DNA of 63,904 nt, filler included, from Rhizaria sp. SCN 62-66 (Eukaryota), in NCBI GenBank assembly GCA_001724265.1. It is 3 parts of 3 records of this genome, joined end to end, with 100 filler letters (N's around TTAATTAATTAA, not from the genome) between each part and the next. Parts side by side here need not be neighbours in the genome. Positions count along the whole stretch, not along the records: positions 18,395 to 45,924 come from MEDY01000478.1; 2 more parts are not named here. One strand, given 5' to 3'. Below, one piece after another: positions 15,092 through 46,024 of the stretch. The notes beneath the pieces were generated by a model. That model saw only the letters and a list, made by a program, of their open reading frames with translations. It was not told the origin of the DNA and did not search any database. The stretch's first letter is position 1, and each line of letters starts with the position of its first letter. A program made the translations under genes and the position numbers.

Positions 15092-15672
15092 TGCAAGCGG
15101 TTCTGATGCAGTACAGGTTGTAAACGGAATGGTTCATGCAAAGTGGTTAACAAGTAGTTAGTACGATTTAGTGTGATCTATGGCGGGTGATTTGGGGGAG
15201 TTTGGGTCGAGTCGAAATGGGTCGAATGAATGTGCGCGTATAGAGCGAGAATGGACATCGATAGACTCATAAAAAGTAGAACAAGTACAAAAACCACAGT
15301 TAGGCTAGGCTGCATGTCTGTCAGACTAGTAACGGACGTACGCCGTTGCTTTGAGGCCCGATTTTGCAAGGTCACCCCTTGATCTCGGTCGGCGAGTGCC
15401 TCGACTGTGGCCCGTTGGGGGTTCTCCGGCTCAGAGGTTGTTTTCGCCGATATTGACAGACAACATGTGACTACTACTACTGAGAAAAATGGAAGAAAAA
15501 ATATATTAACGTGTTATGTGAGCAAATATGAAGTTGTGGAGTCATTGGAGTGGTTGCAAGTTTGTCATATTTGGACATGCACAAACAGTTTTTGGTTGAG
15601 CCGGTTCTGAAAAAAAACACCTGCTGGTTGGTGGCTTGCTTTGACCATGCGTACTTTCGTATATATCCTCCG

Positions 15673-17112
15673 GACGGCAACAAACATCACCGCCTCAACA
15701 CATGATTTTAAACTAAACCGTGCATTTTCTATATTTTCTCATTGCTATCTTGCGATTCTATCGGGGTTTTCACGTGATTTTCCACGTGTTCTTTGTAGGT
15801 TCCATGCTTGAAGAACTCCCTGTCGACGACTGTTTTTTCGTTGAGGACTTTGTGAATGAGGTGGTAGCCGCCAGCATCGTTCGCGTGACTGAGGACAGCA
15901 TTACCAACAAAGTGCTCAACAAGACCTACACGGTATGTTCCACAGGTGGTCGTGCTTTTTGCCTGGACTGCGGCTACGCGCTCTCAGCCCACCGCCGCAA
16001 GCCCGTCGCCCCCGTCGTCGCCGCCGCCCCCCGCACAGTGTAGTCTAAGGAGGACCTCATGGAGGCCTGCGAGGTCAATACCATGGATGACGCGGATGCG
16101 AGGGAGCTCATTAACAAGTATGGTGGACGTCATTTCAACCCCGACGTGTGTAGGCTCATCAACAATGCCTACAAGAGGCGCCCTGGCACCTCGACACGTT
16201 TCCATTTTACCGATATATCTGCCATTACGTTTAACGAACAATACTTTGATGAGAAAATGCATCCATATATCATGTCCGGGTTAACAATGTCACCGGACGC
16301 TCTTGCATCGTCAAGTTTGTCCCGGTTGACGCCACTGTGTCATCACACATGGAGCTCAAAGTCGCTGAGATGACGCCATCGTGCGCAGACCTCGTGCATT
16401 GCTCCGTCATCCGGGCCAAAGAGTCCATTACGAATAAGGTCGGCATTGTGATGGATTACTTCCCTATCACGGTTGAAAAGAGCACTCCGCACAGGCACGA
16501 CACGCTCACCCGCCGCATCAAGAGTATTGGCGTCGCCCTCGATTTCCTGCACGAGAACTCAATCGCCCACATGGACATCAAGCCGGCCAATATCTTCATC
16601 TCGCAGGAGGGCGAGTGGAAGCTGGGCGACTTTGGCTCTGCCTGCCCCTTTGACAAACCCATTCACTCCACAACAAACCGCTTCCACCTCACTACTACAG
16701 AGCTGGATGTGGCAACGGCACAGATCGACTGGGGCATGCTGCTGTGCACGCTCGCCTTTATCATGAGCCGCGCGGAGGGAGGGGGGTCACAATCGCCTGT
16801 TAAAGTCGCTCAGGACCCGAGCGTCGGCCTTTCTCGCGGACACATGGTCGCAAGCGCGCGGGAAGCGATCCTGGCCACAGCGACGGGCGAGCTCAAGACG
16901 CTTATTGAGGAGTGGAAGGGCAAGGCGGGTTCGAAGTAAGAAATCTCTTTAAAGATCATATTTTATAAATACTATACATGTATTTTGTTGTTACTTTCGT
17001 TCGAGTCGTCATCGACAAACCATCTTCATACAGCTTTCAGTAATACATTTGATCAATCTTAAAGCTAGCTGCATTCACATTGTCACATCACAAATGCCCA
17101 GCAAAAGCATTT
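15673..17112 (+). repeat. Dispersed ~1.45-kb duplication, homologous to 62218-63817 (reverse strand)
   Basis: Similarity covers the kinase ORF and both non-coding flanks (e.g. CAACACATGATTTTAAACTAAACCGTGCATT upstream, CATCTTCATACAGCTT...AAAGCTAGCTG downstream). Confidence 0.92.
15804..16939 (+). pseudogene. Zn-finger-like + divergent protein kinase, copy 1 (frameshifted)
   Basis: HMDIKPANIF and LGDFG motifs. Relative to the 62462-63697 paralog: TAG at 16041-16043 (GAG in paralog), a 1-nt deletion near 16283 and an in-frame deletion before MELKVA. Ends TAA. Confidence 0.85.
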
Positions 17113-18294: not shown

Positions 18295-18394
18295 NNNNNN
18301 NNNNNNNNNNNNNNNNNNNNNNNNNNNNNNNNNNNNNNTTAATTAATTAANNNNNNNNNNNNNNNNNNNNNNNNNNNNNNNNNNNNNNNNNNNN
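18295..18394. other. Artificial contig-joining spacer (44 N + TTAATTAATTAA + 44 N)
   Basis: Exactly 100 nt with a six-frame-stop palindrome. Identical to the spacer at 45925-46024. Confidence 0.97.
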
Positions 18395-19388
18395 GACGCG
18401 TCTGCGCGCAGCGTCGAGCCCGGCGGCCAGCGCGCGGTCGCGAGCCGCCAGCGCGAGCGCGGCGGCGGCGGCGGCGGCGGCGCGCGCGGCGGCGCGGGCC
18501 TGGGCGCCCGCGACAGCCGTGAGACGCGTGTGGCCGCGGAAGAGCGCGGCGATGTCGCTGACGCCCGCGCGCGCGAAGCGGCCCGCGTGGTGCTCGTGCG
18601 CGGCGAGGTAGAAGTGGTGCGGGACGGACCAGCGGTACACGGCCTGGGACTCGAGCCGCGCGCGGACCCCCGCGGCCGTGGCCGAAGCGTTAGTGACGGC
18701 CGCCGCCCAGGCCTCGAGCCCCGCCGCGCGCAGCCGCGCGTGTGCGGCGGTGGACAGCAGGGCCGGCACGGCGCGGCGGGTCTGCGCGGCGCGGTGCGTC
18801 AACAGCAGGTGCAGGCGCGCGATGTGGCGCGAGAGCAGGCGCGCGCGGCGGGCTAACAAGTCGAGCCGCACGCGCTTAAGGCACTAGTCCGCGCGCACGT
18901 AGCCCAGCAGCAGCCCGCGGCGCTGGAGGATGTGGCGCACGTCCGCCTCCGTGATCGGCACGAAGCCGCTGCTGTTGCCGCTGCTGTTGGCCGCGGTCGC
19001 AGTAGCGCTCGCAGGCGCAGTCGTGGTGTTCGCCTTGCTGTTGTTGTTGCTGTTGTTGCTGTTAGTATTGACACTAGCGAGAGTTTGCGCGTGAGCGGTC
19101 TGGTGGCGAGGAACGGGGGAAGCCAAGGCTGGAGACTGAGCATTGACAGCAGATGCAGAGAGTGCATGATTCGCGCCAGTGTTGGAAGCGCCATTGTTGC
19201 TGCTGTTGCTGTTGCCGTTGCCGTTGTTGTTCAGCGCGGCGGCGGCGGAGGGGGAGAATGCGCGCGGCGGCGACAACAGCGACGAAGACGGCAGCGGGGG
19301 AGGCGACACAGGTGCGGGGGACGCGGCCTGACTTCGAGACGTCTGGGTCTGGGTGCCAATCTTGCCGTTTTGCTGCAGCAGCTGATGT

Positions 19389-19423
<35 letters not shown>

Positions 19424-20779
19424 CTGCAATTGTTGATGGGTGGAGTGTGACCGTGGCCAGGAACGAGGGCTGGCGTTGTTCTGAATGAAAGCCGCGTTGT
19501 TCTGAACAAAGGCCGTGTGATTGTTCTGAATGAAGGTCGCATTGCTACTCTGCACAGTACTTAAAGTCTGAGTCTGCAGCTGCTGCTGCTTTGACTGTAA
19601 CTGCGACTGAGATTGCGGCTGCTGCTGCTGCTGCTGCTGTAGTTGCTGTTGCTGTTGCTGTTTCTGTTGTTGCTGCTGGGGGCACAGCAAAGCAAGTCCG
19701 GGGCTAAGCCCGGGGGCTGAGGAGGCTGGCACAGGCTTCTTAGCATTCGTGGTGGTGGCGAACGCACTCGTACTCGCATTGCTACTGCCCTTAGAGGTAT
19801 TAGTGCTGTTGTTGTTGTTGTTGTTATGTGAGGGCGACACAGGGAACAGGTTCCTCACGATAGCCCCGCTGGCACCGGCAGCAGCATTGCTCGCGCCAGA
19901 AGCGGCCTCGCTTGCGCTGTTATGCTGACTGTGACTGCTATTGCTCTCCTGCTCCTGCTTCTGCCGCGGCTGCCCATTGCTGCCGTTGCCGCTCCCATAG
20001 TACTGCTGCGGCGGCAGCGGCTGCGGCTGCGGCAGCGGGCGCGGGGACAGGAGCGGCGCGGCGGCGGCGGCGGCGGCGGCGGGCGTCGAGAGTCTGGGGT
20101 CACACAACGCGTCCAGGTCGAGCTCGGCCTCGGCGCCAGGCACCGTCCCCCACTGGCATCCCCAGCCGCCAGAGCCGGAGCCGGAGACTGTGAGAGCCCC
20201 CGCCTCGCCCATAGTAGCGGCGGCGGCAGTCGCAGGCGCAGCTGAGCCGGCGGCCGCAGCACTGGTACTGGTGAGACTGTGGTTGAGGCTGTTAGAGTTG
20301 TGGCTGCTATTCTGAGCGTGAGAGTGAGCGTTCTGAGTCGGTGAGTTCAAAGGCGTAACTCCCGTGCCCTGCTGCTGCTGCTGTTGTTGCTGGGTTGTCG
20401 CGCCCGCAGCGGCGGCCTCGGCCGGCAGGGGCGCCCAGAGCCGTCCCTCCGCCGCCGCGGCCTCGGCCTCCGTGAGCAGCGGTCGCGCGAGGTGGTAGAG
20501 ATCCAGCAGCGCGAGGCGCAGGGACCGGTCGAGTGCGCTGCGGCGCGCGGGCGGCACGGGCGCGCGCAACAGCGCGGCGGCGCCCGCGGGCGGCGGCGGC
20601 GGCATCGGGCGGGCGGGCGGGCACTCGGGCGCGGACAGCAACGCAGAGCTGAGAAGAGAAGGGAGCTGTTGTGCTGAGTCAAGGCGCGAGGCAGGAGAGA
20701 GGGGAGCCGGCGGTCCAGTGCGCGGCGCTATATCAGGTTGTTTGGGGGTAATACAGCTGTTGGGGGGAATATTGATGCC
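18395..20779 (-). CDS. Large orphan protein with Q/N/S/A low complexity, partial (5' exon unresolved, 3' end in gap); in-frame TAG at 18884-18886
   Basis: Frame is open from about 20779 to the gap except for one TAG (YVRAD*CLKRVRLDLL). About 163 GC3-rich codons follow it. Confidence 0.75.
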
Positions 20780-21525
20780 TTATAAAGCCTGTAAAGGTGC
20801 GCAAAGAGCGGGGAAGAGCGGAGGTGTGGAGCGTAAGAGGGATTGGGAACGCGGCAGGGAGGGGGCCGTGGGGCAGGTGGTGACGTCGACGGGGGCAATG
20901 CGAGTGCGCGAGCGGGTGAAATGCAAGTGATAAGCAAGGAGAGCGCGTGCGGGGGTAGAGCAAAAAGTGAGGTACGGAAATGAAAAGAATAATCCGGAAA
21001 GGGGAAAAGGCGGAAGAGCCAGGCGCGGAGAGAGTCGCGGCAGTAAGCAAGCAACTTAGAGAGGAGCAGCCGCTTAGAAGAACCACGCCATTCTCGACAG
21101 AATAGTCGTTAGATAAAAAGAAAACCTGGATTATTGTAGAATAACTCCCGTTGTCTCGATATATAGAGGAGATATCCTATTTGACGACGTCTCTAGCTGG
21201 AATGGCATTGCGAACGAATCGCGCCAGTCCATGCCGTCGCACAGAACCAAGGGCGACCGCGGGCGCGACTGGCTGTGGCGGGTCGATGTGAACCCCTTCT
21301 TAAAGTGTATGTAGCGCCACGGTTAGTCCGTTCACGTGGCATATCTCTGCGAAAAGTGATGTTTATTTTAGATTTCCTATATTTTCCTTAAATTGCACTA
21401 CTAAAACACTGATCCCTCACGTCTCCACGTCCCGTCCCCCACAGCTCCTCCCTCACTCAGTAACCGCCTCTCCCCCGGCCTTGCTCTCAGCAGCTCCCCG
21501 CCGTCCCCCGCAGCTCGCCCACTTG

Positions 21526-22107
21526 ATGTCCAATCCCGCGGACCCGTTTCAGTTGGCGCCTGTGCTCGCGCACGCCTCCGCGCTCCGCGGCGGCGAGCCC
21601 CTGCCGCTGCCCGACCGCGTTTTGCTCGCGACACAGCACGTCCGCTCGCTCGCGTATGACAGCTCCCCGCCCGACGCGCCCGGCGCACGCGACCGGCCGC
21701 CGCTGCCCGAGGCGCAGGCGCGCGAGGTCGAGCGGCTGGCGCGCCCGCGGCCCGGCGCCACGCGCGAGAAACGGCCCGTGGGCGCCGCGGCGGCCGTCGC
21801 GGACGAGGAGGCTCGCGCCAAGGCCACAGCGCGGTGGCAAAACACGCGGAACGAGGCCCCCGCGGCCAACGCCGCGTATCTCGACGCGCTGGCGAAGCCG
21901 ACGCGGCGGCGGGAGAAGTTCGTTGCGCCGGCGTTTGACCCCGAGCGGCACCAGCGGCGCACGGAGCCCGTGGGCAACGCGGCGGAGCTGGAGCGGCTGG
22001 CCCAGATGCCCAAGCGGAAACGCGGCGTCTACACCGGCAAGTTCGACGGCAAGGATCCGCACGATATCAAGAATAAGAGCAACAAGTCCGCCGGGGGCGC
22101 TGCGTGA
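21526..22107 (+). CDS. Small basic protein with three (R/A)LAxP-type repeats, THEG-repeat-like
   Basis: GC3-rich ORF with repeats VERLARPR, LDALAKPT, LERLAQMP. Ends TGA. Confidence 0.65.
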   Translation: MSNPADPFQLAPVLAHASALRGGEPLPLPDRVLLATQHVRSLAYDSSPPDAPGARDRPPLPEAQAREVERLARPRPGATREKRPVGAAAAVADEEARAKATARWQNTRNEAPAANAAYLDALAKPTRRREKFVAPAFDPERHQRRTEPVGNAAELERLAQMPKRKRGVYTGKFDGKDPHDIKNKSNKSAGGAA

Positions 22108-22677
22108 AGCGGCTTAATCAACAGTGCGCTTTTATTGTTTGTGCTGTCTCTCAGAAGAATGGCTGTGTTGTTCAGGTCGGTTTGTTTGTGTGAATGAGTG
22201 ATTGACTTAAAAAGAAGGGAGGGCCTTCGTGTGGTCCTTTTCAAGGTATATTCATGCGTTGCGCTGTAGAAATTAACTTGATTAAGTGTACTTGGTCCGT
22301 TTTAATAAAACATATCCAGATTTAAACTTGGAGTCGTTCGTTAAGCGCATCAACGCGCATCGCAAAGTGGAGCGATCACCACTCGTTTGGTAACCGTTGA
22401 GAGAGAGCTCCATCTCCATCTGTATGGACCGACCGATGGCATTTTGATCAAAGTCAAAACTTCAAAGCGCGATATCGACCTTAAATCATCGTTGATTCCG
22501 ATTGTCAGTGTATTAACTAAATATTAAACTTACATAATACTACTATTTTAAATTAAATTTCCAAAGAAGCGCGTCTACACGCCCCCCAAAGCCCTGGCGC
22601 CAACCCTTGCCACAGCCCACTTCCCCGAACCCTTACCCTGCCTTCGTGCCACCGCTGCGCCCGTCAACGCTTCCCCG

Positions 22678-24664
22678 ATGGCGACCCTGCCCCTCGCGGG
22701 CCCCGCCCCGCTGCCCAGCTCCTCCGCCGCCGCCGGGAGCAACATTACGGCGACGCCTTCAGTGCCCTCCGGCCTGAACCCCGCCTGGTACACGCTGTCC
22801 CGGCTGCGGCGCCGCAAGTTCGCCTCTGCCATCTCCCTGGCCTCGGCGCAGCTTGCGCACAACCCGCGCGACGAGCCCGTGTGGTTCCTCAAGGTCCGCG
22901 CCCTTACACGCTCGACCTTTATCGACGACACGGACCTGGAAGAGGAATCGATCGGTGACCTACTGCTCGACGACGCAGCCATCGCCACTGCGCCCAGGTA
23001 CTTTTATTACAACTAAGATATCTCCATCGTACTTTATCTCTACTCAGCAAGACCTGTAAATATAATTAAACTACGTTATTATATACTTGTATGTAAAATA
23101 TTTATTCATATAACTCTCATCTCATGCTGTGTATACTCTTTATCTCTCCCTCTTTCTGTTACGTTACCGTCTCAGGCCTGGCACGTCGATCCGGCGTCCC
23201 CTCACCTCAGCGCAGGCCGCCCGCGCGGGCACCAGCTCCGGCCTGCGCCCGTCCTCGCAGGCCGGCCGCCCCCTCAGCGGCTACGCGCGCCCGGGCTCCC
23301 AGGCCGCCCGCCCCGGCACCAGCACCAATAACCGGTTGGGCACCAGCGGCGGCGGCACGGCGGCCGCGTTCAAGGGCGCCCGTCCCGGCACCACGCGGCC
23401 GGTGTCCGTGGCGGGGCGGTACGTGCGGCTGGGCACGGCGTCGCTCATGGCTGCCACCAACGGCGCGGCGTTCATTGACGTCAACCGGCTCAACTTCGAG
23501 TCGTTCGCTCGCAAACCTGCTCTGAGCAAGGCCCTCATGGACTACTTGCTTTACCACGCCCACGCGCCGCGCCGCGCGCTGGACCTGGCGGCGCGCGCGA
23601 CCGAGGCGCGCGGGTTTGGCGACTGGTGGTGGAAGCAGCGGTTGGGCGTGAGCTACTACCAACTCGGGCTGCTGCGAGACGCCGACACGCAGCTGAAGTC
23701 CTCGGCCAAGCAGCAGCTCACTCCGGCCTCCGTGCTGGCGCTGGGCAAGCTGTACCTGCGGCTGGACCAGCCCGCCGCCGCGATGGCGCTGTACACGCAG
23801 GCGCTGCAGGGCTCGGCCACCGCGGACCCCGCCTTCGCGACCGGTTTGGCGCGCGTGCAGGAGCTGCTGGGCAATATGACTAAATCGGTGACCATGTACA
23901 AGCAGGTGCTCATGTCCGACCAGACCAACGCTGAGGCCATTGCGTGCGTGGCCGCGCACCTCTTCTACGCCGACCAGCCCGAACTCGCGCTGCGCTACTA
24001 CCGCCGCCTCATCCAGCTCGGCGTCAGCAGCGCAGAGACCTGGACCAACGTCGGGCTCTGCGCCTTTTTCGCGAACCAGTGGGACTTCGCGTTCGGCTGC
24101 TTCGACCGCGCGCTCGCGCTCGCCGAGGAGAGCAACGTTGCTGACGTGTGGTACAACGTCTCTGTTGTTGCCGTGCACTCCGGTGACCACGTACGTTTGC
24201 AGGGGCGAGACTTTGTTGTGTCTTCTGGCTTGACTTAAATAATGTCGAATTCTACATCTATCTGTTATTTATATATTGGTTTCTCACTTAAATATGTATT
24301 TCTCTTCTATATATATCCCTTTCTTTGATGTTCGATCTTGCTTTTGTTTTTTCAGAACCTTGCGGCGCAGGCGCTGCGCGTGTGCCTGTCGCACTCGCCG
24401 TCGCACCCGGAGGCGCTGACGAACCTGGCACTGCTGGACCTGCGCGCGGGCCACGTCGAGGCCGCGCGCGCCGGGCTGGAGGCCGCCTGCCGCACCGCGC
24501 CCCTGTCTTCGGAGCCCTGGTGGAATCTGGCTCTGTTGCGGTTCAAGACGGGCGAGCTTGAGGGTGCGGGGGCCGCGCTTGTGCGCGTGCTCGAGGCCGA
24601 GCCAGAGCACGCAGGCGCGCTTAAGCTCAAGAAAACCATCGGGAACATGTTCCTCGGCTTTTGA
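22678..24664 (+). CDS. BBS8: BBSome subunit BBS8/TTC8, 547 aa; exons 22678-22997, 23176-24190, 24356-24664
   Basis: APRPGTS, GRYVRLGTAS, DWWWK..LG..YYQLGL.RDA, EAIAC, QPELALRYYRRL, DVWYN and TPRs. Intron phases are consistent. Ends TGA. Confidence 0.96.
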
Positions 24665-24864
24665 AATGCTCAAGACGCAAGATAACAAAGCGACAATTTC
24701 GTTGAGTACGTGCTGTAACTGTTACAGATTCTTTCCTTTCGTTCTGTTTTAGGCCAGTTGAGTGAGTATAATGACTTTTAGATGTATGTTTGAAATAAAT
24801 AAATAGTTGATTTAGATATAAATTATAAAGCAGGAACTCGAATGTTTTGTTTCGACTCACAAGC

Positions 24865-27800
24865 TTAAAGGAACCACTTCATGAGCGGAAGCAGAAGCCT
24901 GGCCATGCGCCCAGCCTTCTTCTCCTCACTCCCCACTGCTTCCACACTATTATCGGCAGTTGCCGCTGCAGATGGCATGGGCCGCGGTGTGGAGTGCGCG
25001 AGAGAGAGCGCCAGGTCGGCCCCCATGCGCCGTGTGAGCGCGGGGGACGTGGTGAGAATCGTCAGTTGGCACTCACTGTCCCGCGACACGCTGCGCTCGC
25101 CTGTTGGAGTGAGATATACAGAGAGAAAACAACGTGGATTAGAGTTTAATAAAATATTATTTGTAGAAATGTTGATTTTTGTGCGCGAATATTGAAATTT
25201 ACATTCGATTTAAGGATGTTATGGCAGTGTAAGTAGCGATTTCAAGTTACGCTTTCAAGTTCGGCATTGGCACAGCCTTTGCGATTGCTATTGCGAGAAT
25301 GAGTTGAACGTACCGAAGTTGGAGCTGCCCACCATAGTCAGCAGCGGCATCGCCGGGTCCAGCGGGCACTGCTCATCATCAGCGTCCCCACGGTCACTTT
25401 GCTGTGCGTTGCTACTACTACTATGACTGTGGGAGGGGGAAGCAACGGGCTGTGCCCACAGTCCCTTGGCGTGGTACGTCCAGTGCGGGCGCGCGTACTC
25501 GAGAACCTGTGACTAACCGTGGGCAGCGCTGGACTAACTGTGGGCATTGGTGCGGCGCAGGAACCGATCGGCCAAGAGCCCGTAGGCGGGGGGGATGGCG
25601 GCCGTGACGCCCTTGGCGTCGGCCCAGCCGTTGGCCTAAAACAGAAATACAAAACACAATAATACGCAATGATATCACAATTATTTGAGATAAAAAATAT
25701 TTATATATCTGATAATTTAATATTTACAAGAGATTATAAAATATTAATAAAAAATACTTCGGTTTTGTTTGAGATATATCACGTTCTACGTAAACGTACC
25801 TGTTTGCTCGCGACGAGGACGCGCACCGCATTGGCAGCGCCGGCGACTGCAGCGGAGACCGCAGAAACGGGAGCAACAAGGCGCGCCACGAGGGCCTGGT
25901 AGGGCGGCGGCATGTTGAAGTACCCCGTCGCAATATGCACCGACACAGCCGCAGCAGGTGATGACGCACTCGCAGTCTCAGCACTTGCACTCGCATTCGT
26001 CAAGCTAGAGTTGGAGCTCGAGCCGAAGCTGTTGTTGTTCCCATGTGTAAGGTTGATGAGATCGTTCATAAGCGCAGTGAACAGCCGCTCATCCTGCCTC
26101 ACGCCGAGGCTGGCCAGCTGCAGCGAGGGGTAAATCACCGTGTCCGTCGCCGCAGCCGCCGTGGCATCAGTGACCGCGGGCGCAGCAATGGCCGTTGCAG
26201 CTGTCGCGGTAGCAGTGAACGGCGGCAGCGGCCCGAGGATGGCCTGCAGGGCGCGCGCAGTGGCTCCAGGGGCGGCGAAAGCAGCGGCGCGGGACTGCGT
26301 CGACAGCGACTGGGCCAAAGCGGGGGCCGCAGACAGCCAGGACCAGTCAGCGGCGACGGCAGATGCGTCGCTAATGTTGTTATTGTGAAAGGGACGACTG
26401 TGGGCGAGCCAAAAGGGGGGGATTTGCGTGTTCATCGAGCCAATGCTCTCCAGCCCACAGTCACTACCACCCTTAGATAAAGCACCCTTAGACTCTGTGA
26501 CCGCATTGCTATCACTCTGAGCACTCTTAATATCGTTGTTGTTTCTGTTGCTGTTGTCGTCGTTAAAGATGAGCGCTGCAGCCGGAGACGCGCTGAGACA
26601 TAGTGCTGTGGCAGCCAAAGCGTCGCAGAGCGGCTTATCTTTGATTAACAGGTAGCGGTCCTGACGCTGCTGGAAGTAGACGTCGCTCAGGTTCGCACCA
26701 CTCATGATCTAAAGCGAAGAGACAAACATGTTGGTTTAGCAACAGGAAGGAACATGAGACAATCAAGTGTGAGAGTTGAGAAGAACATCAGTCCTTATAC
26801 AAAACATACCATTTCAAATTTAAAATTTAAGAAAATACTTCAGTTATATGCATATATATGCGTGTTATAATTGTGAATTATAGCGGAAGACTTACGAGCG
26901 TGTCATCGACGATGTAGAGCTTCATGTGGTGGACAGTGAGGAGCTCGTTCCCGCGCCCGGGGAGGTGTTTCTGCAGCAGGGCCCAGAGACGGCCGCGCAG
27001 GCGCTCGGGCAGGGGCGTCGCAGCGGCAAAAATGTCATCATCACCATCCTCATTGATCGTAGCAGCAGCAACAACAGCAGCAGTCGAACTCGAGCTAGAG
27101 CTAGAGTTAGAGTTTGCGACAGTACGAGTGCTCTGCGAAGTGGTATCAGCAGTTAGAGAGTTATTACCGCTGTTGTCCGTGTTCCTGCGCGGTTCAGCGC
27201 GCGAGTGCCTCAGCGGCGGGGCGAAGAAGGCCGCCGACACGCGCCCCGGATGCCGCTGCGCCAGCTCCGCGCATAGCGACAGCGATGAGTGGCCCGTTTC
27301 CCGGTCCCGGCGGCGGCCGCGCGCGTGGTCGAACATAAGGTGCGCCGTCAGGGCCGGGGCCGCCGCCAGGGACGCGGACAGAGAAGCCAGCAGGGCCCGC
27401 TCGGTCGGGGACGAGCCCAGGTAGAGGGCGCTCAAGAGGACGCGGTGGCGCGCGTTGGCGAGCAAATCCTGCAAATTATGAAAAATAATGCAAACACAAA
27501 ATACAAGAAAAGTTGATTACAACACGTTAAAATACATCAATAAAATTATCACAAAGATTTAGCTAGATATATTTTGATATGAGCGAGATGTCTCAGCAAA
27601 AGCGCGTACGTTGAGGGTGTTATAGAAGTCCTGGGGCGTCTCGATGGCCGTAATGCAGTCGCTGGACACCGGAAACGGCCGCGCATACCGTGACAGCGTC
27701 TGCGCAAGCGTGGGCACAAAGGCTGCGGTGCACGCAGCGGCGGGGTCGCCGGGCGCTCTCGTTGCGGGCGCGCTCTGTGCAGCGGTGAGCGAGGGGGAGA

Positions 27801-28002
27801 CTCTCACAGCAGCCGCGGCGGCAGCTGGCGCGGGGGCGGACGTGGATAGCGCAGACCGCTGCTGCTGCACAAACGGCGCCGCAGCACCGTAATAAACAAG
27901 CGCTGCCGCTGCTGGGGAGCGCGCAGGAGAGAAGGGAAGGCGGGAGGCGGTGGAGAGCACCCCGCGCAGGAGCGGGGAGCGGACTGCCAAACGGCCCAGC
28001 AT
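24865..28002 (-). CDS. PGS1: Mitochondrial phosphatidylglycerophosphate synthase (PLD superfamily), 810 aa if two TAGs are read; exons 28002-27610, 27468-26896, 26708-25800, 25635-25314, 25100-24865
   Basis: Presequence-like N-terminus, P.DFY..L, LSALYLG, HMKLYIVDDTLIMSGANLS..YF..RQDRY, ATGYFN, ANGW..AKG....IP.AY, EY.R..WTYHAKGLW, GSSNFG.RS..RD.E. In-frame TAGs at 25536-25534 and 25515-25513. Ends TAA. Exon 4 is missing from the ORF track. Confidence 0.93.
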
Positions 28003-28390
28003 CTGTCCAGACTTAACACGCTGCAGCGCGCTGTAAAGTATGTTCTAAGGCTTAAAATTTTGAATACAAAAATTTAACTCATGTTAAAATAGCATACTTG
28101 CGCAACACTTCCGTTAACGGACTATAAAAAGAGATATACTTGATAAAAGTGAGATTTAAGTCACTGCTGTGTGCCCAATTACCCAACAAGACTCGTCCGG
28201 TTCGCAAAAAATTGAGGCGGAGTCAGCTCGAAGCCGAAGACAGCGCTTCGCAAATATGAAAAATGCATGTTTATCATCCGTTATAGCGTATATTATAAAG
28301 CTTTTTGAACATCCCGCTCCGCAAAGTATCTTTTCTATCAATAGTGTCTCACGTAAGAACCTCCATCTTCTGCGTTTGCGTATCTCCAGA

Positions 28391-31300
28391 ATGAGCAAGG
28401 CTCCGAGTCGCTTGGACGCCCTGCTCTCTGGCGCTCCGCTGGGCGCCGTCACGGGCGCGGCCGCCCTGGGCGCCGCCACCGCGCAGTCGACGCACATCAC
28501 GGCCATGCTGTCGGCGTCGATGCAGACCGTTTCCGCCGCGAACGCGCTCGCGGGGAGCAACCTCGCGTACCTCTCCACGGTCCCCTCGGTGGCGGCCAAG
28601 ACGCAGGCCGTGCAGCAGCAAATCCTGTCTCTGATGGCGCAGCTCATCGCCAAGGTCTCCCGCTCCGCGCGCGACGATCCCGCGCCCTTTCTTCGTCTTA
28701 ACACGGACTCGGCGCGCTTTTCTGCGCTCGTAGACGCTACTGACGACGGGCTCGAACACGTCTCCGCTGCGCTCGCCCGCGCCCTCAAGCCCGTCTCCAG
28801 CAGCAGCAACGCCTCTGCCGCGGCCGCGACCGCCGCCGCCGACCCCGCCGCCGCCGCGCAGGCCGCCGTGAAGCTGGGCGCGATCCGCTTCAACTCGTCC
28901 GCGCCCTCAGCCGCCGACGCCGCAGCCGCCAGCGCCAACGCCAGCGCGGGCGCGGTTGTGGGCAAGCCGCAGCTGTCGTTCCGCTTCCCCGTGGACAACT
29001 CGCCCGCGCCGTGGCTGCCGCGGCTGCGCGTGAAGCCCAACGCGCTGCAGCCGCTGGAGCCCGGCTTCGCGCTGCGGCCGGAGTCAGCGCTCGTCCCCGC
29101 GTCCTCTGTCTACATCAGCACTAGCAACAACGACGACAACGACGACGATGATGATGGAGACGAGGAGAGGAGCTACTACACCGAGGCGTCGACGCCGGCC
29201 GCCATGAGCGCCGCCGCCACCGCGGCCGCCGCAGTCACCGTCCTGCCCTCCGGGTCCGACTCTGACGACGTCGACGACACCGCCAGTCCTAACAACAACA
29301 GCAACAGCAGCAGCAGCAGCAGCTCTCGTGCCAGTGGCGCTAGAACTGGCTCTGGTTCCGGCTCTGCTAAGAGTTCACTTCCGATGACTGAGCTTAAGGC
29401 GCACATGAGCGGCCTCGGATACAAGTCCAAATCTCACACCTCGACGACAACTCCCAGCAGCAACTCTGGTAACAACAGCAACAGCAACAGTGCTGCCGCG
29501 ATCGCCAGCGCCCCGTCCGGCGCGGGCGGCTTAAATTCCTCCTCCGGCGGCCTGACTTCCTCGCTGCCGCACCCGTACGCGTACGAGCTGGCGCACGCCG
29601 CCGTCCCACGCCGCTGCTTGGGGCCGGTGCGGGAGCGTCTGTTCAAGCCGCTGGCCGAGACGCCCTGCTGGTGGGTCGACTCCCCCGCCGACGTGCCTGT
29701 GCTGGTGAGGAAGCTGCGCGCTGCGAAGGAGATCGCGATCGACTTGGAGCACCACTCGTTCCGCTCGTTCCAGGGCATCACGTGCCTGCTGCAGCTGTCG
29801 ACGCGCACGGAGGACTTCATCGTCGACACGATCGCGCTGCGGGACCACCTGGCGCCGCTCAACACGGTCTTCACGGACCCCACGGTGAGCAAGGTGCTCC
29901 ACGGCGGCCACATGGACGTGCAATGGCTGCAGCGCGACCTGGGCCTCTACTTGGTCAACCTGTTCGACACGGAGCAGGCGGCGCGGCTGCTCGACTTCCG
30001 CTCCTTCTCGCTCGCGCACCTGCTCAAGCACTATTGTGACACCACCACGGACAAGAAGTACCAGCTCGCCGACTGGCGGGTCCGCCCGCTCCCGGCCGAG
30101 ATGCTGCTGTACGCGCGCCAGGATACCCACTTCCTGCTGTACATCTACGACCGCATGCGGAACGCGCTGGCGGACAAGGCCGCCGCGGTGCTGCGGGCGC
30201 ATCCCTCGGCCGCGACCAACCGTGGCAGCGCGGGATACGTCTACGTGCGCCCCTCGGAGGCCGCCTGCAAGAAGGACAGCAGCAACAGCGCCAAGGACAA
30301 CAACGACAACGAGGAGGACGAGGACGAAGACTGGTTGTTTGACGACGAGACCACCAATCCTAACAGCAGCGGCAAAAGCAGTTTTGCCAAGACGAGCTTG
30401 CCCCGCGTGATCGACGCCTCGGCGCCCTCCGCGGTCGCGCTGGGCGTGCGCGCCTCGCCGCCGCGCTTCTTCCTCCACGCCGCGTGCCTGAACCGGTCCC
30501 GCGAGACGGCGGCGACGCTGTACGAGAAGGAGGCCGTGACGGCGGGCGCGGCGCTCGACTTCGCCGCGAAGTACCGGCTGACGCTGACGGACCGGCAGCT
30601 GCGCGTGCTGACCGCGCTGCTGCAGTGGCGCGACGGCGTGGCGCGCGCCGAGGACGAGAGCACGGGGTACATCATGCCGAACCAAGCCGTCATCGGGACC
30701 GTTGAGGCGCTGCCCGCGACCGCGGCGGAGCTGGCGCGCGCTTGCCAGGTCCTCACGCCCTCGCTGCGCACGCACGCCGCGGCCGTTGTCGCGCTCGTCG
30801 CCGCCGCGGGCGCCACGGGCGGCGGCAGCAGCGCGACCGCGGCGGCCGTGGCGGCGGCCATCGGGTCCGCCACCGCCAACAGCAACAGCAGCAGTAGCAG
30901 CAACGGAAACGGGAAGACTCCCGCGACCGCGACTGCGAACGGCGCGAGCGCGAACGCTGCCGCTGCCGTTGTTGCTGCTGCTGCTGGTGCTGCTGCTGCT
31001 GGTGCGAATGCTGTGGGGCCGCAGTCGCCGCCGCAGAAGCGGAGCGACCTGGCCAAGTCCACCCAGTGGATTGCTAACAGTACCGGCTCGAGCGGCGAGT
31101 CGTCCCAGTCGCAGTCAATCTCGCCCACTGCGAGCTCCGGCGCCGGCGCCAGTGCCGGTGCTACTGCCAGCGGCAAGAAGGCTACCGCTGCTGCGGCCGC
31201 GGCCGGCGGCAAGGGCGTGACCGTCAAGTCCGAGCCTGCAAGCAGTGACCGTGAGCAGTCGCAGTCTAACTCCGGTGCGAATGGTGAGGTTGAGGCTGAG

Positions 31301-33067
31301 GGCGCTGCTGGCGCGGCCTGGCGCAGTCAGTGGGAGGCCTCAGCCGCCGCCGCCGCCGCCGCCGCCTACGCAGCCGCCGGCGTGACCCGTTCTGGTCCCT
31401 TTGCACTCCTCGACGGAGCAGGTCTCCTCTCGTCCAACAGCAACTGCAACGGTGACAGCTCGAGTGCGAGTGCGAGTCAGAGGGCGGCGCGAGGCGGCGC
31501 GGCGGCGCTGTTCGGCGCTGACTCAGACAACGACGACGTCGACGATAATAACAATGCAATCAACACCGCTGTTGTTTCTAAGGGTGGCAGCAAGACTGGT
31601 AAGAACGGCAAGAAGGACAACGCTGCAGCAGCTGCGACCCCTGTCCGCCCCCGCTCTAACGCCAGTGCTGCGACCAGTGCGAGTGCAATGACGCCCGCAG
31701 CGGCTGCGGCCGCCGCTGTCCGCGCCAAGCTTGCGGCGACGCCCGCCCTCACGCCCCTCATGCTCGCGACCGCGGCGGCCAGCGCTGCTGCCAATACGCC
31801 GGCTCACACCGACCTGTCGTGGTCAGCCAACGGCGACACCGCCAACGCCACCGCGACTGCGACTGTGCCTGCTGCCGACAAGGCGAAGCTGACGAGTATG
31901 ATCGACTCGGTTTCTGGTGACCTCTCGTCCTTCACCTCGACCTCCGCCCCCGACTTTACCAGCGGCGGCGACGGCAGCGCGAGCAACACGGCAGCCCTCA
32001 CCGGCGGCCGCCACTCTGCTGCTGCTGCTGCCAACGCAAACAGCGGGCTGCCTCAGTCGCCGTTGTCGGCGCGCGGCGAGGCAGCCGGTCACGCGCGGCC
32101 CGCCCTCGGCCTCGGCGTGCCCCGCTCAGAGTCGACTGCGGCGGCGGCGGCCCAGGCCAAGGCTGCTGCGGCGGCGACGGCGGAGGCCGTGGCGGCGTCG
32201 GCGCGCGGACAGGTGCCGCTGTCAATGCGCGAGATCTACGTCCTGGCCAACGCCAACAAGACGAAGCTTAGCAAACAGGCCGCCGCCGCCGCCGCCGCCG
32301 CCAATGCCGCTGTGACTGGCCCTAGCGCCAACGCTGCGAGCGTTGATGGTGCGGCTGCGGGCAATAGCGAGGAGCGCGAGGCTAAGCGCGCGCGCAAGGC
32401 TGCCAAGAAGGCCGCCAAGAAAGCAGCCTCCGCCGCCGCTGCCGCTGCTAACGCCGGCAACAGCGACGACGAGGCTGCGAACGATGACGGCGACGACGAT
32501 GATGAAGCCTTCCTGGGCAAGGTTGGGTGGACAGCAGGCGCGAACGCTGCGGCGAGCAACGCCGCCACCGCCGCTGCCGCCGCGAACCTCGCGAGCGCTA
32601 AAGCTGCGACTGGGGGCAAGAGCGAAGGTGGGAAGCGTAAGAAGCAGCCCTTCACCCCCATCAGTAACAACAACGATGACACTGCTGCTGCTGCCAACGA
32701 TGACGACCACGACAGCTCAAGCTCGAGCGCTGGCTCTGGCTCTGGCTCTAAGAGTGCGACCCCGACGGCCGCTGCCAACTCTAGCATCGTCAGCTTCGAC
32801 TTCGCCGCGATGACCGCGACGAACGCCTTCTCCTCGGCCAACGTCAGCGGCGCGATGCTCGCCGCCGCAGCAAACTACAGCTCCGGCGGACGCTACTACG
32901 ACGGCAACGCGCGCGGCGGTCGCGGCGGACGCGGTGGCGGCCGCGGCGGTGGTCGTGGCGGTGGCGGCCGCGGCGGCAGTCGCGGAGGCAGTAGCCGCGG
33001 CGGCGGTGGCGGCGGCGGGCGCGGCGGCAGTCGTGGCGGCGGCGGTGGCGGCGGTCGCGGCCGGTAA
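28391..33067 (+). CDS. RRP6: Exosome 3'-5' exonuclease Rrp6/EXOSC10, 1558 aa, with C-terminal RGG tail
   Basis: KPQL.F...VDN, PHPY.YEL, IAIDLEHHSFRSFQGITCLLQLSTR, WLQRD, NLFDT, YQLADWR.RPL, YARQDTHFLLYIYD and the HRDC motif WRD.VAR.EDES.GY. Ends TAA. Confidence 0.96.
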   Translation: MSKAPSRLDALLSGAPLGAVTGAAALGAATAQSTHITAMLSASMQTVSAANALAGSNLAYLSTVPSVAAKTQAVQQQILSLMAQLIAKVSRSARDDPAPFLRLNTDSARFSALVDATDDGLEHVSAALARALKPVSSSSNASAAAATAAADPAAAAQAAVKLGAIRFNSSAPSAADAAAASANASAGAVVGKPQLSFRFPVDNSPAPWLPRLRVKPNALQPLEPGFALRPESALVPASSVYISTSNNDDNDDDDDGDEERSYYTEASTPAAMSAAATAAAAVTVLPSGSDSDDVDDTASPNNNSNSSSSSSSRASGARTGSGSGSAKSSLPMTELKAHMSGLGYKSKSHTSTTTPSSNSGNNSNSNSAAAIASAPSGAGGLNSSSGGLTSSLPHPYAYELAHAAVPRRCLGPVRERLFKPLAETPCWWVDSPADVPVLVRKLRAAKEIAIDLEHHSFRSFQGITCLLQLSTRTEDFIVDTIALRDHLAPLNTVFTDPTVSKVLHGGHMDVQWLQRDLGLYLVNLFDTEQAARLLDFRSFSLAHLLKHYCDTTTDKKYQLADWRVRPLPAEMLLYARQDTHFLLYIYDRMRNALADKAAAVLRAHPSAATNRGSAGYVYVRPSEAACKKDSSNSAKDNNDNEEDEDEDWLFDDETTNPNSSGKSSFAKTSLPRVIDASAPSAVALGVRASPPRFFLHAACLNRSRETAATLYEKEAVTAGAALDFAAKYRLTLTDRQLRVLTALLQWRDGVARAEDESTGYIMPNQAVIGTVEALPATAAELARACQVLTPSLRTHAAAVVALVAAAGATGGGSSATAAAVAAAIGSATANSNSSSSSNGNGKTPATATANGASANAAAAVVAAAAGAAAAGANAVGPQSPPQKRSDLAKSTQWIANSTGSSGESSQSQSISPTASSGAGASAGATASGKKATAAAAAAGGKGVTVKSEPASSDREQSQSNSGANGEVEAEGAAGAAWRSQWEASAAAAAAAAYAAAGVTRSGPFALLDGAGLLSSNSNCNGDSSSASASQRAARGGAAALFGADSDNDDVDDNNNAINTAVVSKGGSKTGKNGKKDNAAAAATPVRPRSNASAATSASAMTPAAAAAAAVRAKLAATPALTPLMLATAAASAAANTPAHTDLSWSANGDTANATATATVPAADKAKLTSMIDSVSGDLSSFTSTSAPDFTSGGDGSASNTAALTGGRHSAAAAANANSGLPQSPLSARGEAAGHARPALGLGVPRSESTAAAAAQAKAAAAATAEAVAASARGQVPLSMREIYVLANANKTKLSKQAAAAAAAANAAVTGPSANAASVDGAAAGNSEEREAKRARKAAKKAAKKAASAAAAAANAGNSDDEAANDDGDDDDEAFLGKVGWTAGANAAASNAATAAAAANLASAKAATGGKSEGGKRKKQPFTPISNNNDDTAAAANDDDHDSSSSSAGSGSGSKSATPTAAANSSIVSFDFAAMTATNAFSSANVSGAMLAAAANYSSGGRYYDGNARGGRGGRGGGRGGGRGGGGRGGSRGGSSRGGGGGGGRGGSRGGGGGGGRGR

Positions 33068-34332
33068 GCATCGGCTTGAATCGCAACGATAACGATTGCA
33101 ACAAAACATAAACAAAACACAGTGATAACGCTTGGAGGGTGACTATTAGGCGTGTTAACACTACACTATGAGTGTTTTTCGCGACAAAATGAAGTATCAG
33201 TTCAGGATAAAAACAAATACATGTACATTAAAGAAACTAGCTGCTTTTGTGGATTATTTTACAACTGAATTGAAATGCCTTGTTAAACTGAACAAAATCT
33301 CGTGTATGTATGCATACGCACTAACACGAGCGTTAACACTGATGCTGCAACAAATCTTGCATCATCAAAGCTGGTTGAATCACGCATTCCTATGAGCTAT
33401 ATGCATTGTAAGGTCAGCACTATGATGCGTACAACAGTCTTTGCTGTTCAGTTAAATAGCTTTCAGTGTCTTCTGATGTAAACTTATTGAAAGAAAGAAA
33501 CCCTCGCACTCAAACGGAGTGTTACGGGGACGGGCTGGTTGGCATTGTGTATTGCGCGTGCTTGGGCGTGCTTGTACGACGACGACTATTACATTACAGA
33601 GCGAGAAAGAGTGGTGTAACAGTATACGGGTGTGGGTATGTAACTGCGTTCGCGTTGCGGTAGCGTTACGACGCGAATGAATAAACTGTTACACTGCTTA
33701 TGCTGATGCTTGCTGGTGACATATTGACACTGAACACTTGACACTGACACGAAGAGAGGTAAGAAGCGAACGCTGCTGCTGGCTGATTGACAGCGAAGAG
33801 AAAAATACAAAGCTGCGGCAGCGGCGGCAAACTTAACCCTTAAAGACCACACGCGCGCTCAACCCGGACCTCTTGTAGTAAAGTAAGTACGTACTCAGAT
33901 TGGAAAAGAAGAACGGGGGTCAGGAAAGCGCGGGGAAATATGATGGCGAAAATCAAATAAATATTAGAGGCACCACAAGAAGGGGCATCCGTGTTGTCAT
34001 TACTGCGACTGGAACTTTGCTACTGTTGCTGTTGTTGTTGTTGTCGGAATTATTATGAGTAGTAGTTGTTGTTGGTGTTGTTGTGTTGCGCTTTGTACTG
34101 ACGCGCACACAGACTGGATATATCGCATGCAAAACACGCCTGATCTTGTTCGTGAACAATCACACACGCACACGGTGAGGCAAAGTTATCACAAAAATGT
34201 TGTGACTGACAGTTTCCGTCGATTAGAGAGAAAGCCTTGCGTGTTATGGTCGCGCGAGTGAGATGTGAGAGCAAGAGAGCGCGATTACAGAGCGAAGAAG
34301 CAAAGCTTGCGAAGCGAGCAGGCACAGCGCAC

Positions 34333-34854
34333 TTACTCGCTTTTCTTGCTACCAGAGAGGTGAGTGATGGCCTTGGCGATGGACCAAACGCAGGCGCCGA
34401 CTGCCGCGCCCTGGAAGGCGATACGGGCGAACATGTACTTGTTGGCCTTGGTCGAGTCGCGGGTGACGAACGACTGCTTCATGCCGCCCATGAGGGCGAC
34501 GACGGTGAGGCCGGCGAAGATGGGCACGGCGGGGTCCTCCTTGGCCTTGGCCTTGGCGGTCTCCCAGAACGAGGGGCGGCGCTGGTACGAGTCCCTGTGG
34601 TGTCAAAAACGCAAGGTGCACAGCGCGGAGAGATGGCGAGGGGGAAGGCGGCGATGGGGAAGCGGGACAGAAGGAGGAAAGTGAGCTGAGTAGGGGCGGG
34701 GATTGGGAAGCGAAGCGTGGTGCGGGATTTACGAGTCGGAATAGAGGCATATTCGGTGCGGGAAGAAGAAAACGCACCACTCACGGTCGTCCCAGAACTC
34801 GAAGCCGCCCTTGTCGGCGGGCTTGTTGGCGGAGTTGGCGGAATCAGAGGACAT
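34333..34854 (-). CDS. HIG1-domain (Rcf1/HIGD-like) mitochondrial protein; exons 34854-34778, 34594-34333
   Basis: K.KEDPAVPI...LT..AL..G and N..M.ARI.FQG match the HIG1 pattern. Donor GTGCGT. Ends TAA. Confidence 0.85.
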
Positions 34855-45475: not shown

Positions 45476-45924
45476 TTATTAGCGCTACATCTTTGCCGTC
45501 CTCGACTTCTTCGCAGGCTGCGACACCTGCTTCGTGGCGGTATTGAGGATTTCGAGCGCCGTGCTGGCCGTGTGCCCCGTCGCGGGACGGACCTGCGCGA
45601 GGTACGCGAGAAGCGAACCGTAGTGGGGATCCTGCTCGTCGGTCCACCTGCAGGTGACCATGAACTCGTGCAGCATCACCAAGTCCATGCACGTCGACGC
45701 AGTCATGTTGATCTCCGGGAAGCCCGCCTCCACCAGTACGCTTCGGCACCCGAGGTTGGCGGGCACCGCCTCTTTCACGGGGCGCACAAACTCGAGGTCA
45801 ATGACGAGGTAGCCCTCGTTGGCGCGGATGACGTTGGACGGGTGCAGGTCAATATACACGAAGCCAATCGCGTGCAGCCCCACGAAGAACGAGAGGATGG
45901 CCTCCAGCACGGGCACCGGGTCGG
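45476..45924 (-). CDS. C-terminal part of a divergent kinase-like protein (5' end in gap)
   Basis: LHAIGFVYIDLHPSNVI....YLVIDLEF. Ends ATG TAG CGC TAA TAA. Confidence 0.7.
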
Positions 45925-46024
45925 NNNNNNNNNNNNNNNNNNNNNNNNNNNNNNNNNNNNNNNNNNNNTTAATTAATTAANNNNNNNNNNNNNNNNNNNN
46001 NNNNNNNNNNNNNNNNNNNNNNNN
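45925..46024. other. Artificial contig-joining spacer (44 N + TTAATTAATTAA + 44 N)
   Basis: Same structure as 18295-18394. Confidence 0.97.

What the first reader, a model, noticed from the sequence alone, without database searches (positions are those of the whole stretch)
25513..25536. Two in-frame TAG codons inside an otherwise intact PGS1: UAG read as sense
Seen: exon 4 reads ANGWADAKGVTAAIPPAYGLLADRFLRRTNAHS*SSAAHG*SQVLEYARPHWTYHAKGLW. The conserved blocks on both sides are in the same frame, and the second catalytic motif, the GSSNFG motif and exon 5 are intact. The obvious GTTAGT...CACAG candidate intron is 32 nt and would shift the frame. I found no GT-AG pair that removes both TAGs in frame without deleting conserved residues. 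Known: PGS1 needs both PLD catalytic half-sites. Nuclear codes reassigning UAG alone are rare but described (Gln in Iotanema spirale, Leu in an uncultured rhizarian, variants in some ciliates). Inference: UAG is decoded as an amino acid. AHSQS/AHGQSQ fits the Ser/Gln tracts of this genome, but Leu or Glu also fit. Caveat: the two TAGs arise from a short duplication (GCCCACRGTTAGTC), so they are not independent.
Basis: partly seen in the sequence, partly recalled or inferred. Interest (0 to 1): 0.92.

Follow-up and report, generated by a model that had tools for sequence, protein, structure and literature searches.

The report
In-frame TAG codons inside PGS1 gene
An otherwise intact mitochondrial lipid-synthesis gene of an uncultured wastewater eukaryote carries two TAG 'stop' codons in its middle, and neighbouring genes show the same oddity, so this organism probably reads TAG as an amino acid, though 64 kb cannot prove it.

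Summary
Two in-frame TAGs lie at 25536-25534 and 25515-25513 (minus strand) in exon 4 of a five-exon, 810-codon PGS1 gene. They are its only internal stops. DNA contigs of two further studies carry both TAGs unchanged, so they are not an assembly error.

No GT-AG pair removes them in frame. The window's real introns are 141-213 nt and AT-rich. Homologues need the 14-24 residue linker in which the TAGs lie.

The window gives independent support:
- A second gene has an in-frame TAG (18886), with equal coding signal on both sides.
- Two kinase paralogues each carry a TAG where the other has GAG.
- None of about 22 apparent terminators is TAG. The single TAG at a gene end is followed by CGC TAA TAA.

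Weaknesses:
- Sense TAG would be rare.
- The kinase copies look degenerate (a frameshift, DFG>DFD, dN/dS 0.78).
- The window holds no tRNA gene, and the RNA contigs were uninformative.

Best reading is UAG decoded as sense, with UAA and UGA as stops (about 0.55). The amino acid is unknown, with Glu weakly favoured. The main rival is a set of nonsense alleles or pseudogenes (about 0.2).

The parts
24865..28002 (-). PGS1-like gene: 5 exons (27610-28002, 26896-27468, 25800-26708, 25314-25635, 24868-25100) and TAA at 24865-24867. It has an N-terminal Arg-rich presequence and both H-x-K catalytic halves.
   Evidence: introns 141-213 nt, GTACGT/GTAAGT donors. (810 codons, full-length alignment with 13 homologues, 65 of 72 conserved columns agree).
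25314..25635 (-). Exon 4, which carries both TAGs and the second catalytic motif (WTYHAKGLW ... GSSNF).
25534..25536 (-). In-frame TAG 1 (codon 659), context AGT TAG TCC.
   Evidence: Unchanged in X3 and X4 DNA contigs.
25513..25515 (-). In-frame TAG 2 (codon 666), context GGT TAG TCA.
25511..25552 (-). Two 21-nt (7-codon) tandem units, T N A H S TAG S and S A A H G TAG S. They are 16 of 21 identical in codon register, with a 14-nt core matching 13 of 14.
   Evidence: The register count was done by hand.
18884..18886 (-). In-frame TAG in an unrelated gene (g8, 18395-20779, cut by the contig end). Coding signal continues in the same frame for 163 codons after it.
   Evidence: 0.37 bits/codon on both sides, the only positive frame of six.. 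X4 record 9 covers 18821-19369 with 0 differences.
16041..16043 (+). In-frame TAG in kinase paralogue A, where paralogue B has GAG. Copy A also has a 1-nt frameshift and in-frame deletions.
   Evidence: The same sequence is found in metagenome contig L001.
63062..63064 (-). In-frame TAG in kinase paralogue B (just after the alpha-C Glu region), where paralogue A has GAG. Copy B has DFD in place of DFG.
   Evidence: the Pkinase hit lies at residues 247-346, downstream of the TAG.
45485..45487 (-). The only TAG that closes a coding stretch. It is followed by CGC TAA TAA, so it could be a terminator or a sense codon two codons before the real stop.

Best explanation
This organism decodes UAG as an amino acid and keeps UAA and UGA as terminators. 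It is an uncultured, GC-rich, intron-bearing eukaryote from wastewater and bioreactor metagenomes.

On this reading, PGS1 is made full length, with one residue inserted at each of codons 659 and 666 in a variable surface linker before the second catalytic half-site.

Shown here:
- The TAGs are real DNA.
- PGS1 is otherwise intact and conserved.
- The segment cannot be spliced out in frame.
- At least one more gene is open and coding-like across a TAG.

Inferred:
- A cognate tRNA with anticodon CUA exists, with or without a weakened eRF1 response to UAG.
- The change is genome-wide.
- The inserted residue may be Glu, because both paralogue comparisons pair TAG with GAG.
For: 1. PGS1 is 810 codons with only two internal stops, both TAG. 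It aligns end to end with 13 homologues, and 65 of 72 highly conserved columns agree, including both H-x-K motifs.
2. Homologues have 14-24 residues between RF[LF] and hxhxEY, and the window has 20. Removing the TAG segment would leave too few.
3. Real introns here are 141-213 nt, 21-36% GC, with GTACGT/GTAAGT donors. No GT-AG pair around the TAGs has a length divisible by 3.
4. The TAGs are identical in contigs from two other studies.
5. The two repeat units have diverged at 5 of 21 positions, yet both keep TAG while the rest of the gene stayed intact.
6. The g8 TAG at 18886 has coding score 0.37 bits/codon both upstream and downstream in one frame, the only positive frame of six, with no TAA or TGA for 163 codons.
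7. In an unbiased scan of 24 stops that close coding-like stretches (13 TAA, 8 TGA, 3 TAG), only TAGs (16041, 18886) are followed by continuing coding signal.
8. About 22 apparent terminators are TAA or TGA. The only terminal TAG is followed by CGC TAA TAA. P(<=1 TAG of 23) is 0.12 to 0.003 for a TAG share of 0.15 to 0.30.
9. The kinase paralogues show TAG/GAG reciprocally. If nonsense mutations were random, both arising as GAG>TAG has P 0.013-0.028.
10. A HIG1-domain gene and the PGS1 presequence suggest respiring mitochondria, where PGS1 should matter. That link is established knowledge, not tested here.
Against: - Sense TAG would be very rare: 5 codons in 4 events among roughly 13,000 coding codons (my rough sum of ORF lengths, not computed). 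In the rhizarian exLh there are 384 in 71 genes (PMC5304391, passage read).
- Kinase copy A has a 1-nt frameshift and in-frame deletions. Copy B has DFD for DFG. dN/dS between them is 0.78. Their TAGs may be plain nonsense mutations.
- g8 has no detectable homologue or Pfam family, so its function cannot be vouched for.
- The PGS1 TAGs lie in a non-conserved linker and are one event.
- There is no tRNA gene in the window, and no eRF1.
- Stop usage rests on about 22 genes whose ends I judged by eye. A few may be intronic.
- TAA-G may simply be this genome's preferred terminator.
Confidence: 0.55

Rival explanations
1. The code is standard, and the TAGs are true premature stops. PGS1 is a recently inactivated allele or a redundant copy, and g8 and the two kinases are also broken genes.
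For: - Kinase copy A has a frameshift plus a TAG. Copy B has DFG>DFD. dN/dS is 0.78.
- In GC3-rich genes most one-step nonsense mutations give TAG; the share was 45-48% even in the kinase.
- In-frame TAGs are rare.
- No second line of evidence (tRNA, RNA, peptides) exists.
Against: - PGS1 has no frameshift and no other stop in 810 codons. It agrees at 65 of 72 conserved columns and keeps canonical splice sites at all four introns.
- The repeat units diverged at 5 of 21 positions after the duplication while the gene stayed intact.
- Four of about 23 genes would have to be broken, all by TAG and none by TAA or TGA.
- The one coding variant seen in PGS1 (25582 G>A in an X8 contig) is synonymous, tac>tat (codon worked out by hand).
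Confidence: 0.2
2. The code is standard, with programmed or leaky readthrough of UAG at particular sites. Full-length PGS1 is made at a reduced level by near-cognate decoding.
For: - Four of five in-frame TAGs are followed by T (3 of 4 independent events, P 0.012; T is 15% at codon position 1). All 22 apparent TAA/TGA terminators are followed by a purine. This fits a weak-termination context.
- The rarity of TAG also fits.
Against: - Two stops seven codons apart would compound the loss of a housekeeping enzyme.
- The contexts UAG-UCC-AGC and UAG-UCA-CAG do not match the readthrough motifs I recall (CARYYA after UAG, CUAG after UGA; recalled, not tested).
- The local fold is no more stable than shuffles (z +0.83).
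- Four unrelated genes in 64 kb is too many for a gene-specific device.
Confidence: 0.12
3. The TAGs are removed or changed at the RNA level, either by an unconventional small intron or excision, or by A-to-I editing of UAG to UGG.
For: - GTTAGT resembles a donor site.
- A 10-nt inverted repeat (UGCCCACAGU at 25546-25537, ACUGUGGGCA at 25465-25456) could pair next to TAG 1.
- UAG>UGG editing of premature stops is known in some fungi (recalled, not checked).
Against: - No in-frame GT-AG exists. A 39-nt GC-AG removal would leave a 7-residue linker where homologues have 14-24.
- The window's introns are 141-213 nt and AT-rich.
- The fold is not unusual.
- Editing does not explain the TAG/GAG paralogue pairs.
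Confidence: 0.06
4. The TAGs are an assembly or sequencing artefact.
For: The window is a metagenome assembly made of three contigs joined by N linkers.
Against: Contigs of X3 and X4, from other studies and years, are identical across both TAGs. Kinase copy A, TAG included, is identical in a JGI contig.
Confidence: 0.01

Closest known systems
UAG-only nuclear reassignments with UAA kept as stop: rhizarian exLh (UAG=Leu) and Iotanema spirale (UAG=Gln) (PMC5304391, passages read)
   Same: In-frame stops are exclusively UAG, UAA (and here UGA) still terminate, and the organism is a non-ciliate eukaryote. A tRNA with anticodon CUA is the predicted mechanism.
   Different: exLh has 384 in-frame UAGs in 71 genes, whereas here there are about 5 in about 23 genes. 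The amino-acid hint here is Glu, not Leu or Gln. Nothing is known about this organism's lineage.
Phyllopharyngean ciliates with UAG=Leu or Gln and UAA as the preferred stop (PMC11687900, abstract read)
   Same: UAG alone is reassigned. The case was found by mining metagenome-derived eukaryote assemblies. UAA is the main terminator.
   Different: Those are ciliates with widespread sense UAG and identified suppressor tRNAs. This genome is about 60% GC with 140-210 nt AT-rich introns, and no tRNA was available.
Oligohymenophorea sp. PL0344 (UAA=Lys, UAG=Glu, UGA stop) (PMC10553269, passages read)
   Same: This is the only described code in which UAG means Glu independently of UAA. The tRNA-Sup(CUA) genes derive from tRNA-Glu.
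   Different: There UAA is also reassigned and 95.9% of genes contain both codons. Here UAA appears to be the commonest terminator.
PGS1 (CDP-diacylglycerol--glycerol-3-phosphate 3-phosphatidyltransferase, PLD superfamily)
   Same: Full-length collinearity, both H-x-K half-sites and the GSSNFG.RS motif.
   Different: It has long low-complexity inserts, ANGW instead of ANGF (shared with hits P0001 and P0011), and the two TAGs.

Membership tests
PGS1 (PLD-superfamily phosphatidylglycerophosphate synthase) | Two H-x-K catalytic half-sites in one chain, collinear with known members | tested here: met
   HHMKLYIVDD..SGANLS and YHAKGLW..GSSNFGERS align with 13 homologues, and 65 of 72 highly conserved columns agree; 233 hits at E<=1e-3 for exon 4.
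PGS1 (PLD-superfamily phosphatidylglycerophosphate synthase) | Pfam PLD-type domain hit | tested here: inconclusive
   exons 2-5 were scanned singly and gave no PLD family at E<=0.01. The spliced protein could not be handed to the tool.
Nuclear code with UAG reassigned to sense (UAA/UGA stops) | In-frame UAG inside genes that are coding or homologous on both sides | tested here: met
   PGS1, g8, kinase copies A and B.
Nuclear code with UAG reassigned to sense (UAA/UGA stops) | UAG falls at conserved positions and points to one amino acid | tested here: inconclusive
   The PGS1 sites lie in a variable linker. Two of two paralogue comparisons give GAG, but both copies may be degenerate.
Nuclear code with UAG reassigned to sense (UAA/UGA stops) | UAG not used as terminator while UAA/UGA are | tested here: met
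   about 22 TAA/TGA ends and 1 ambiguous TAG (followed by CGC TAA TAA). The sample is small, P 0.12-0.003 depending on the assumed TAG share.
Nuclear code with UAG reassigned to sense (UAA/UGA stops) | Cognate tRNA with anticodon CUA | not testable with these tools
   no tRNA gene of any kind in the window. No whole genome is held.
Nuclear code with UAG reassigned to sense (UAA/UGA stops) | eRF1 domain 1 altered | not testable with these tools
   eRF1 is not in the window.
Programmed stop-codon readthrough | Stimulatory 3' context or downstream structure | tested here: not met
   Contexts are UAG-UCC-AGC and UAG-UCA-CAG. Fold z-score is +0.83. The reference motifs are recalled.
Spliceosomal intron | GT-AG (or GC-AG) bounds, length keeping the frame, composition like the genome's introns | tested here: not met
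   Candidate spans of 22, 26, 28 and 32 nt. Real introns are 141-213 nt with 21-36% GC.
Pseudogene | Frameshifts, several kinds of stop, loss of conserved residues | tested here: not met
   PGS1 shows none. Kinase copy A does have a frameshift.

The most novel reading that the evidence does not exclude
An uncultured, GC-rich, non-ciliate eukaryote of wastewater reactors uses a nuclear code not yet described: UAG = glutamate, with UAA and UGA both kept as terminators. The change is at an early stage, in which sense UAG is still rare and is preferentially followed by U. That would make it a snapshot of a stop codon being captured.
Probability: 0.2. Interest if true: 0.88.

Novelty: new member of a known kind. 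Interest (0 to 1): 0.7.

Why it matters
Reassignment of UAG alone in a nuclear genome is known from only a handful of lineages, mostly ciliates. A further case in a GC-rich, intron-rich protist would add an independent origin. It would also warn that standard-code gene calling truncates proteins in this organism's assemblies.

If sense UAG really is as rare as it looks here, the organism would show an early stage of codon capture. That stage has been hard to observe, and here it could be tested directly with the existing public read sets.

Tried and rejected
- **Whole genome:** none is held, so no Codetta-like survey, tRNA-CUA search or eRF1 check was possible.
- **RNA evidence:** Read laying on 18395-33400 with X8, X9, X4 and X3 showed no spliced joint at any PGS1 intron. 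By my reading of table 3, one low-depth X8 contig (about 25521-25709) runs unspliced from exon 4 into intron 3. The RNA runs therefore say nothing about splicing, editing or expression. X9 looked like DNA.
- **Close relatives of PGS1:** the best of 1.84 billion representatives is 51% identical. Nothing was found in the near-length search or in genome contigs.
- **More contigs of the organism through the kinase family:** Metagenome contigs gave 56 loci, and only L001 is close. L001 is identical to copy A. Genome contigs gave nothing.
- **g8 C-terminal region:** no homologue and no Pfam family.
- **Taxonomy from glycerol kinase hits:** the nearest named hits are about 53-55% identical and mix bacteria, chytrids and algae. 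The PGS1 cluster look-up was also uninformative. The lineage is left open.
- **Earlier scan notes:** none found.
- **TAG at 44902:** it lies in an rve-integrase fragment next to Sushi-like sequence. I treated this as decayed mobile DNA and did not count it.
- **TAGs at 2538, 12555 and 14613:** these are in a UTR or at intron acceptors and were not counted.
- **Local RNA structure:** not unusual.
- **Tandem Repeats Finder:** found nothing. The repeat was shown instead.
- **Literature:** two searches listed no paper on a GC-rich wastewater eukaryote with reassigned UAG. Supplements were not consulted.

Full report
**What the window is.**
The 63,904 bases are three contigs joined by N linkers: 1-18294, 18395-45924 and 46025-63904. 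No whole genome is held. Public runs that hold the PGS1 stretch are bioreactor, wastewater, activated-sludge and fuel-cell metagenomes from nine studies. Exons are GC-rich (GC3 about 0.85) and introns are AT-rich. I could not determine the lineage.

**The observation.**
My gene model has five exons (27610-28002, 26896-27468, 25800-26708, 25314-25635, 24868-25100) and then TAA. It gives 810 codons, and the only internal stops are codons 659 and 666, both TAG. My first attempt started one base off and was wrong.

The N-terminus is an Arg-rich presequence. Exon 4 alone finds 233 PGS1-like proteins at E<=1e-3, the best at 51% identity. The spliced protein aligns end to end with 13 of them. It agrees at 65 of 72 columns that are nearly invariant among the homologues, including both H-x-K half-sites and GSSNFG.RS.

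The two TAGs sit in two 21-nt units. The 14-nt core matches twice in the window and in none of 100 shuffles; the repeat finder gives 15 nt at 93% identity with spacing 21. They are therefore one event.

**The TAGs are real.**
DNA contigs of X3 (25433-26125, no differences) and X4 (25460-26238, one difference in the intron) carry both TAGs. These runs come from studies other than the probable source.

**They cannot be spliced out.**
- GT..AG spans around the TAGs are 22, 26, 28 and 32 nt (counted), so none keeps the frame.
- The window's convincing introns are 141-213 nt and 21-36% GC, with GTACGT or GTAAGT donors.
- A 39-nt GC-AG removal would keep the frame, but it would leave 7 residues between RFL and EY. 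The 25 aligned homologues have 14-24 there and the window has 20.
- The local RNA fold is no better than shuffles, with z +0.83.

**Other TAGs in the window.**
I trained a codon model on homology-supported exons (3,359 codons). With it I scanned every stop that closes 50 stop-free codons of coding-like sequence in the best of six frames. The scan returned 24 stops: 13 TAA, 8 TGA and 3 TAG.
- Only two stops are followed by 50 further stop-free codons with positive coding score, and both are TAG (16041 and 18886).
- The third TAG (45487) is followed by CGC TAA TAA.

*g8 (18395-20779, minus strand).* At 18886 the coding score is 0.37 bits/codon on both sides in one frame, the only positive frame of six. 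No TAA or TGA follows for 163 codons, up to the contig end. An X4 contig confirms the DNA. g8 has no homologue or Pfam family.

*Kinase paralogues (15717-16936 plus strand; 62465-63772 minus strand).* Copy A has TAG where copy B has GAG, and copy B has TAG where copy A has GAG. If these were random nonsense mutations, GAG>TAG is 11-17% of the possible paths, so both arising that way has P 0.013-0.028.

These copies are poor witnesses, however:
- Copy A has a 1-nt frameshift and in-frame deletions.
- Copy B has DFD for DFG.
- dN/dS between them is 0.78 overall, 1.19 in the N-terminal part and 0.58 in the kinase core.
- A JGI contig (L001) is identical to copy A, so these features are not assembly errors.

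**Terminators.**
Four TAA rows lie in introns or AT-rich leaders by my reading: 24236 and 26880 fall inside introns listed, while 2370 and 14659 are less certain. That leaves 17 TAA/TGA ends.

One search adds five ends that the scan missed, all TAA: PGS1, the gene ending at 33064, the gene ending at 59258, and both kinases. The total is 22, and all 22 are followed by a purine.

I left out two doubtful ORF ends (TGA at 43593-43595 and TAA at 49554-49556). A few included ends (1635, 23014, 34731) were not verified.

With at most 1 TAG among 23 ends, P is 0.12 to 0.003 for an assumed TAG share of 0.15 to 0.30. This is suggestive only.

The in-frame TAGs are followed by T (both in PGS1, g8, kinase A) or by A (kinase B). 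T is 15% at codon position 1, so 3 of 4 independent events has P 0.012. I cannot explain this preference. It fits a weak-termination context.

**Weighing the explanations.**
One hypothesis explains all of the following:
- an intact, conserved, presequence-bearing PGS1 with two old TAGs;
- a second gene that is open across a TAG;
- reciprocal TAG/GAG in the paralogues;
- the absence of clear TAG terminators.

That hypothesis is that UAG is decoded as sense while UAA and UGA terminate.

The organism also has a HIG1-domain gene. That fits respiring mitochondria, where the cardiolipin pathway matters; this link is established knowledge and was not tested here.

Points against:
- Sense TAG would be far rarer than in known cases. 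The rhizarian exLh has 384 in 71 genes (PMC5304391, passages read).
- Two of the four supporting genes look degenerate.
- There is no tRNA gene, no eRF1, and no usable RNA. One search shows only low-depth, unspliced or DNA-like contigs.

I put sense decoding at about 0.55, nonsense alleles or pseudogenes at 0.2, site-specific readthrough at 0.12, RNA-level removal or editing at 0.06, and artefact at 0.01.

**Comparison with what is known.**
- UAG-only reassignment with UAA kept as a stop is described for the rhizarian exLh (Leu) and Iotanema spirale (Gln) (PMC5304391).
- It is also described for phyllopharyngean ciliates (Leu, Gln) (PMC11687900, abstract read).
- UAG=Glu independent of UAA is described only in Oligohymenophorea sp. 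PL0344, where UAA=Lys (PMC10553269, passages read).
- UAG=Glu with both UAA and UGA as stops was not among the papers listed by my two searches. That is a limited check.

If the reading holds, this is a new member of a known kind. If Glu holds as well, it is a new variant.

Noticed in passing
18295-18394 and 45925-46024: Two N44 + TTAATTAATTAA + N44 linkers. The window is three separate contigs joined artificially, so ORFs that touch these places are cut.
   Followed up: yes
36572-36684 (-): A 5S rRNA gene (Rfam RF00001, 56.4 bits, E 3.9e-09), standing alone between protein-coding genes.
   Followed up: no
15717-16936 (+) and 62465-63772 (-): Two paralogous genes on different contigs, each with an N-terminal domain and a protein kinase domain. 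They are 84% identical in DNA, with dN/dS 0.78. Copy A has a 1-nt frameshift and 60-nt and 33-nt in-frame deletions. Copy B has DFD for DFG.
   Followed up: partly
All apparent terminators (e.g. 4617-4619, 24865-24867, 33065-33067, 53347-53349): All 22 apparent TAA/TGA terminators are followed by a purine, mostly TAA-G or TGA-G. In-frame TAGs are mostly followed by T.
   Followed up: partly
25456-25465 and 25537-25546: A perfect 10-nt inverted repeat. The segment just 5' of TAG 1 (TGCCCACAGT on the mRNA strand) is the reverse complement of the codons for G-L-W-A in the catalytic motif. The TAG-bearing insert may have arisen by a template switch. The fold is not unusually stable.
   Followed up: partly
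44051-45091 (-): An rve integrase-core fragment (E 1.9e-05, below Pfam's cut-off) runs across a TAG at 44902 into Sushi-like Cys-rich repeats. It is probably decayed mobile DNA next to, or fused with, a surface-protein gene.
   Followed up: partly
18395-20779 (-): A protein with long poly-Q, poly-N and Ser/Ala tracts and an Arg/Leu/Ala-rich C-terminal region. It has no homologue or Pfam family.
   Followed up: partly
34336-34602 (-): A small HIG1-domain (hypoxia-induced protein / Rcf1-like) gene, which hints at a respiring mitochondrion.
   Followed up: no
25582 and 25694: Variants seen in activated-sludge runs: 25582 G>A (synonymous Tyr codon in PGS1 exon 4, X8 only) and 25694 A>C (intron, X8 and X4). 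Over 15 kb only four variant positions were listed, so the populations in different studies are nearly identical.
   Followed up: no
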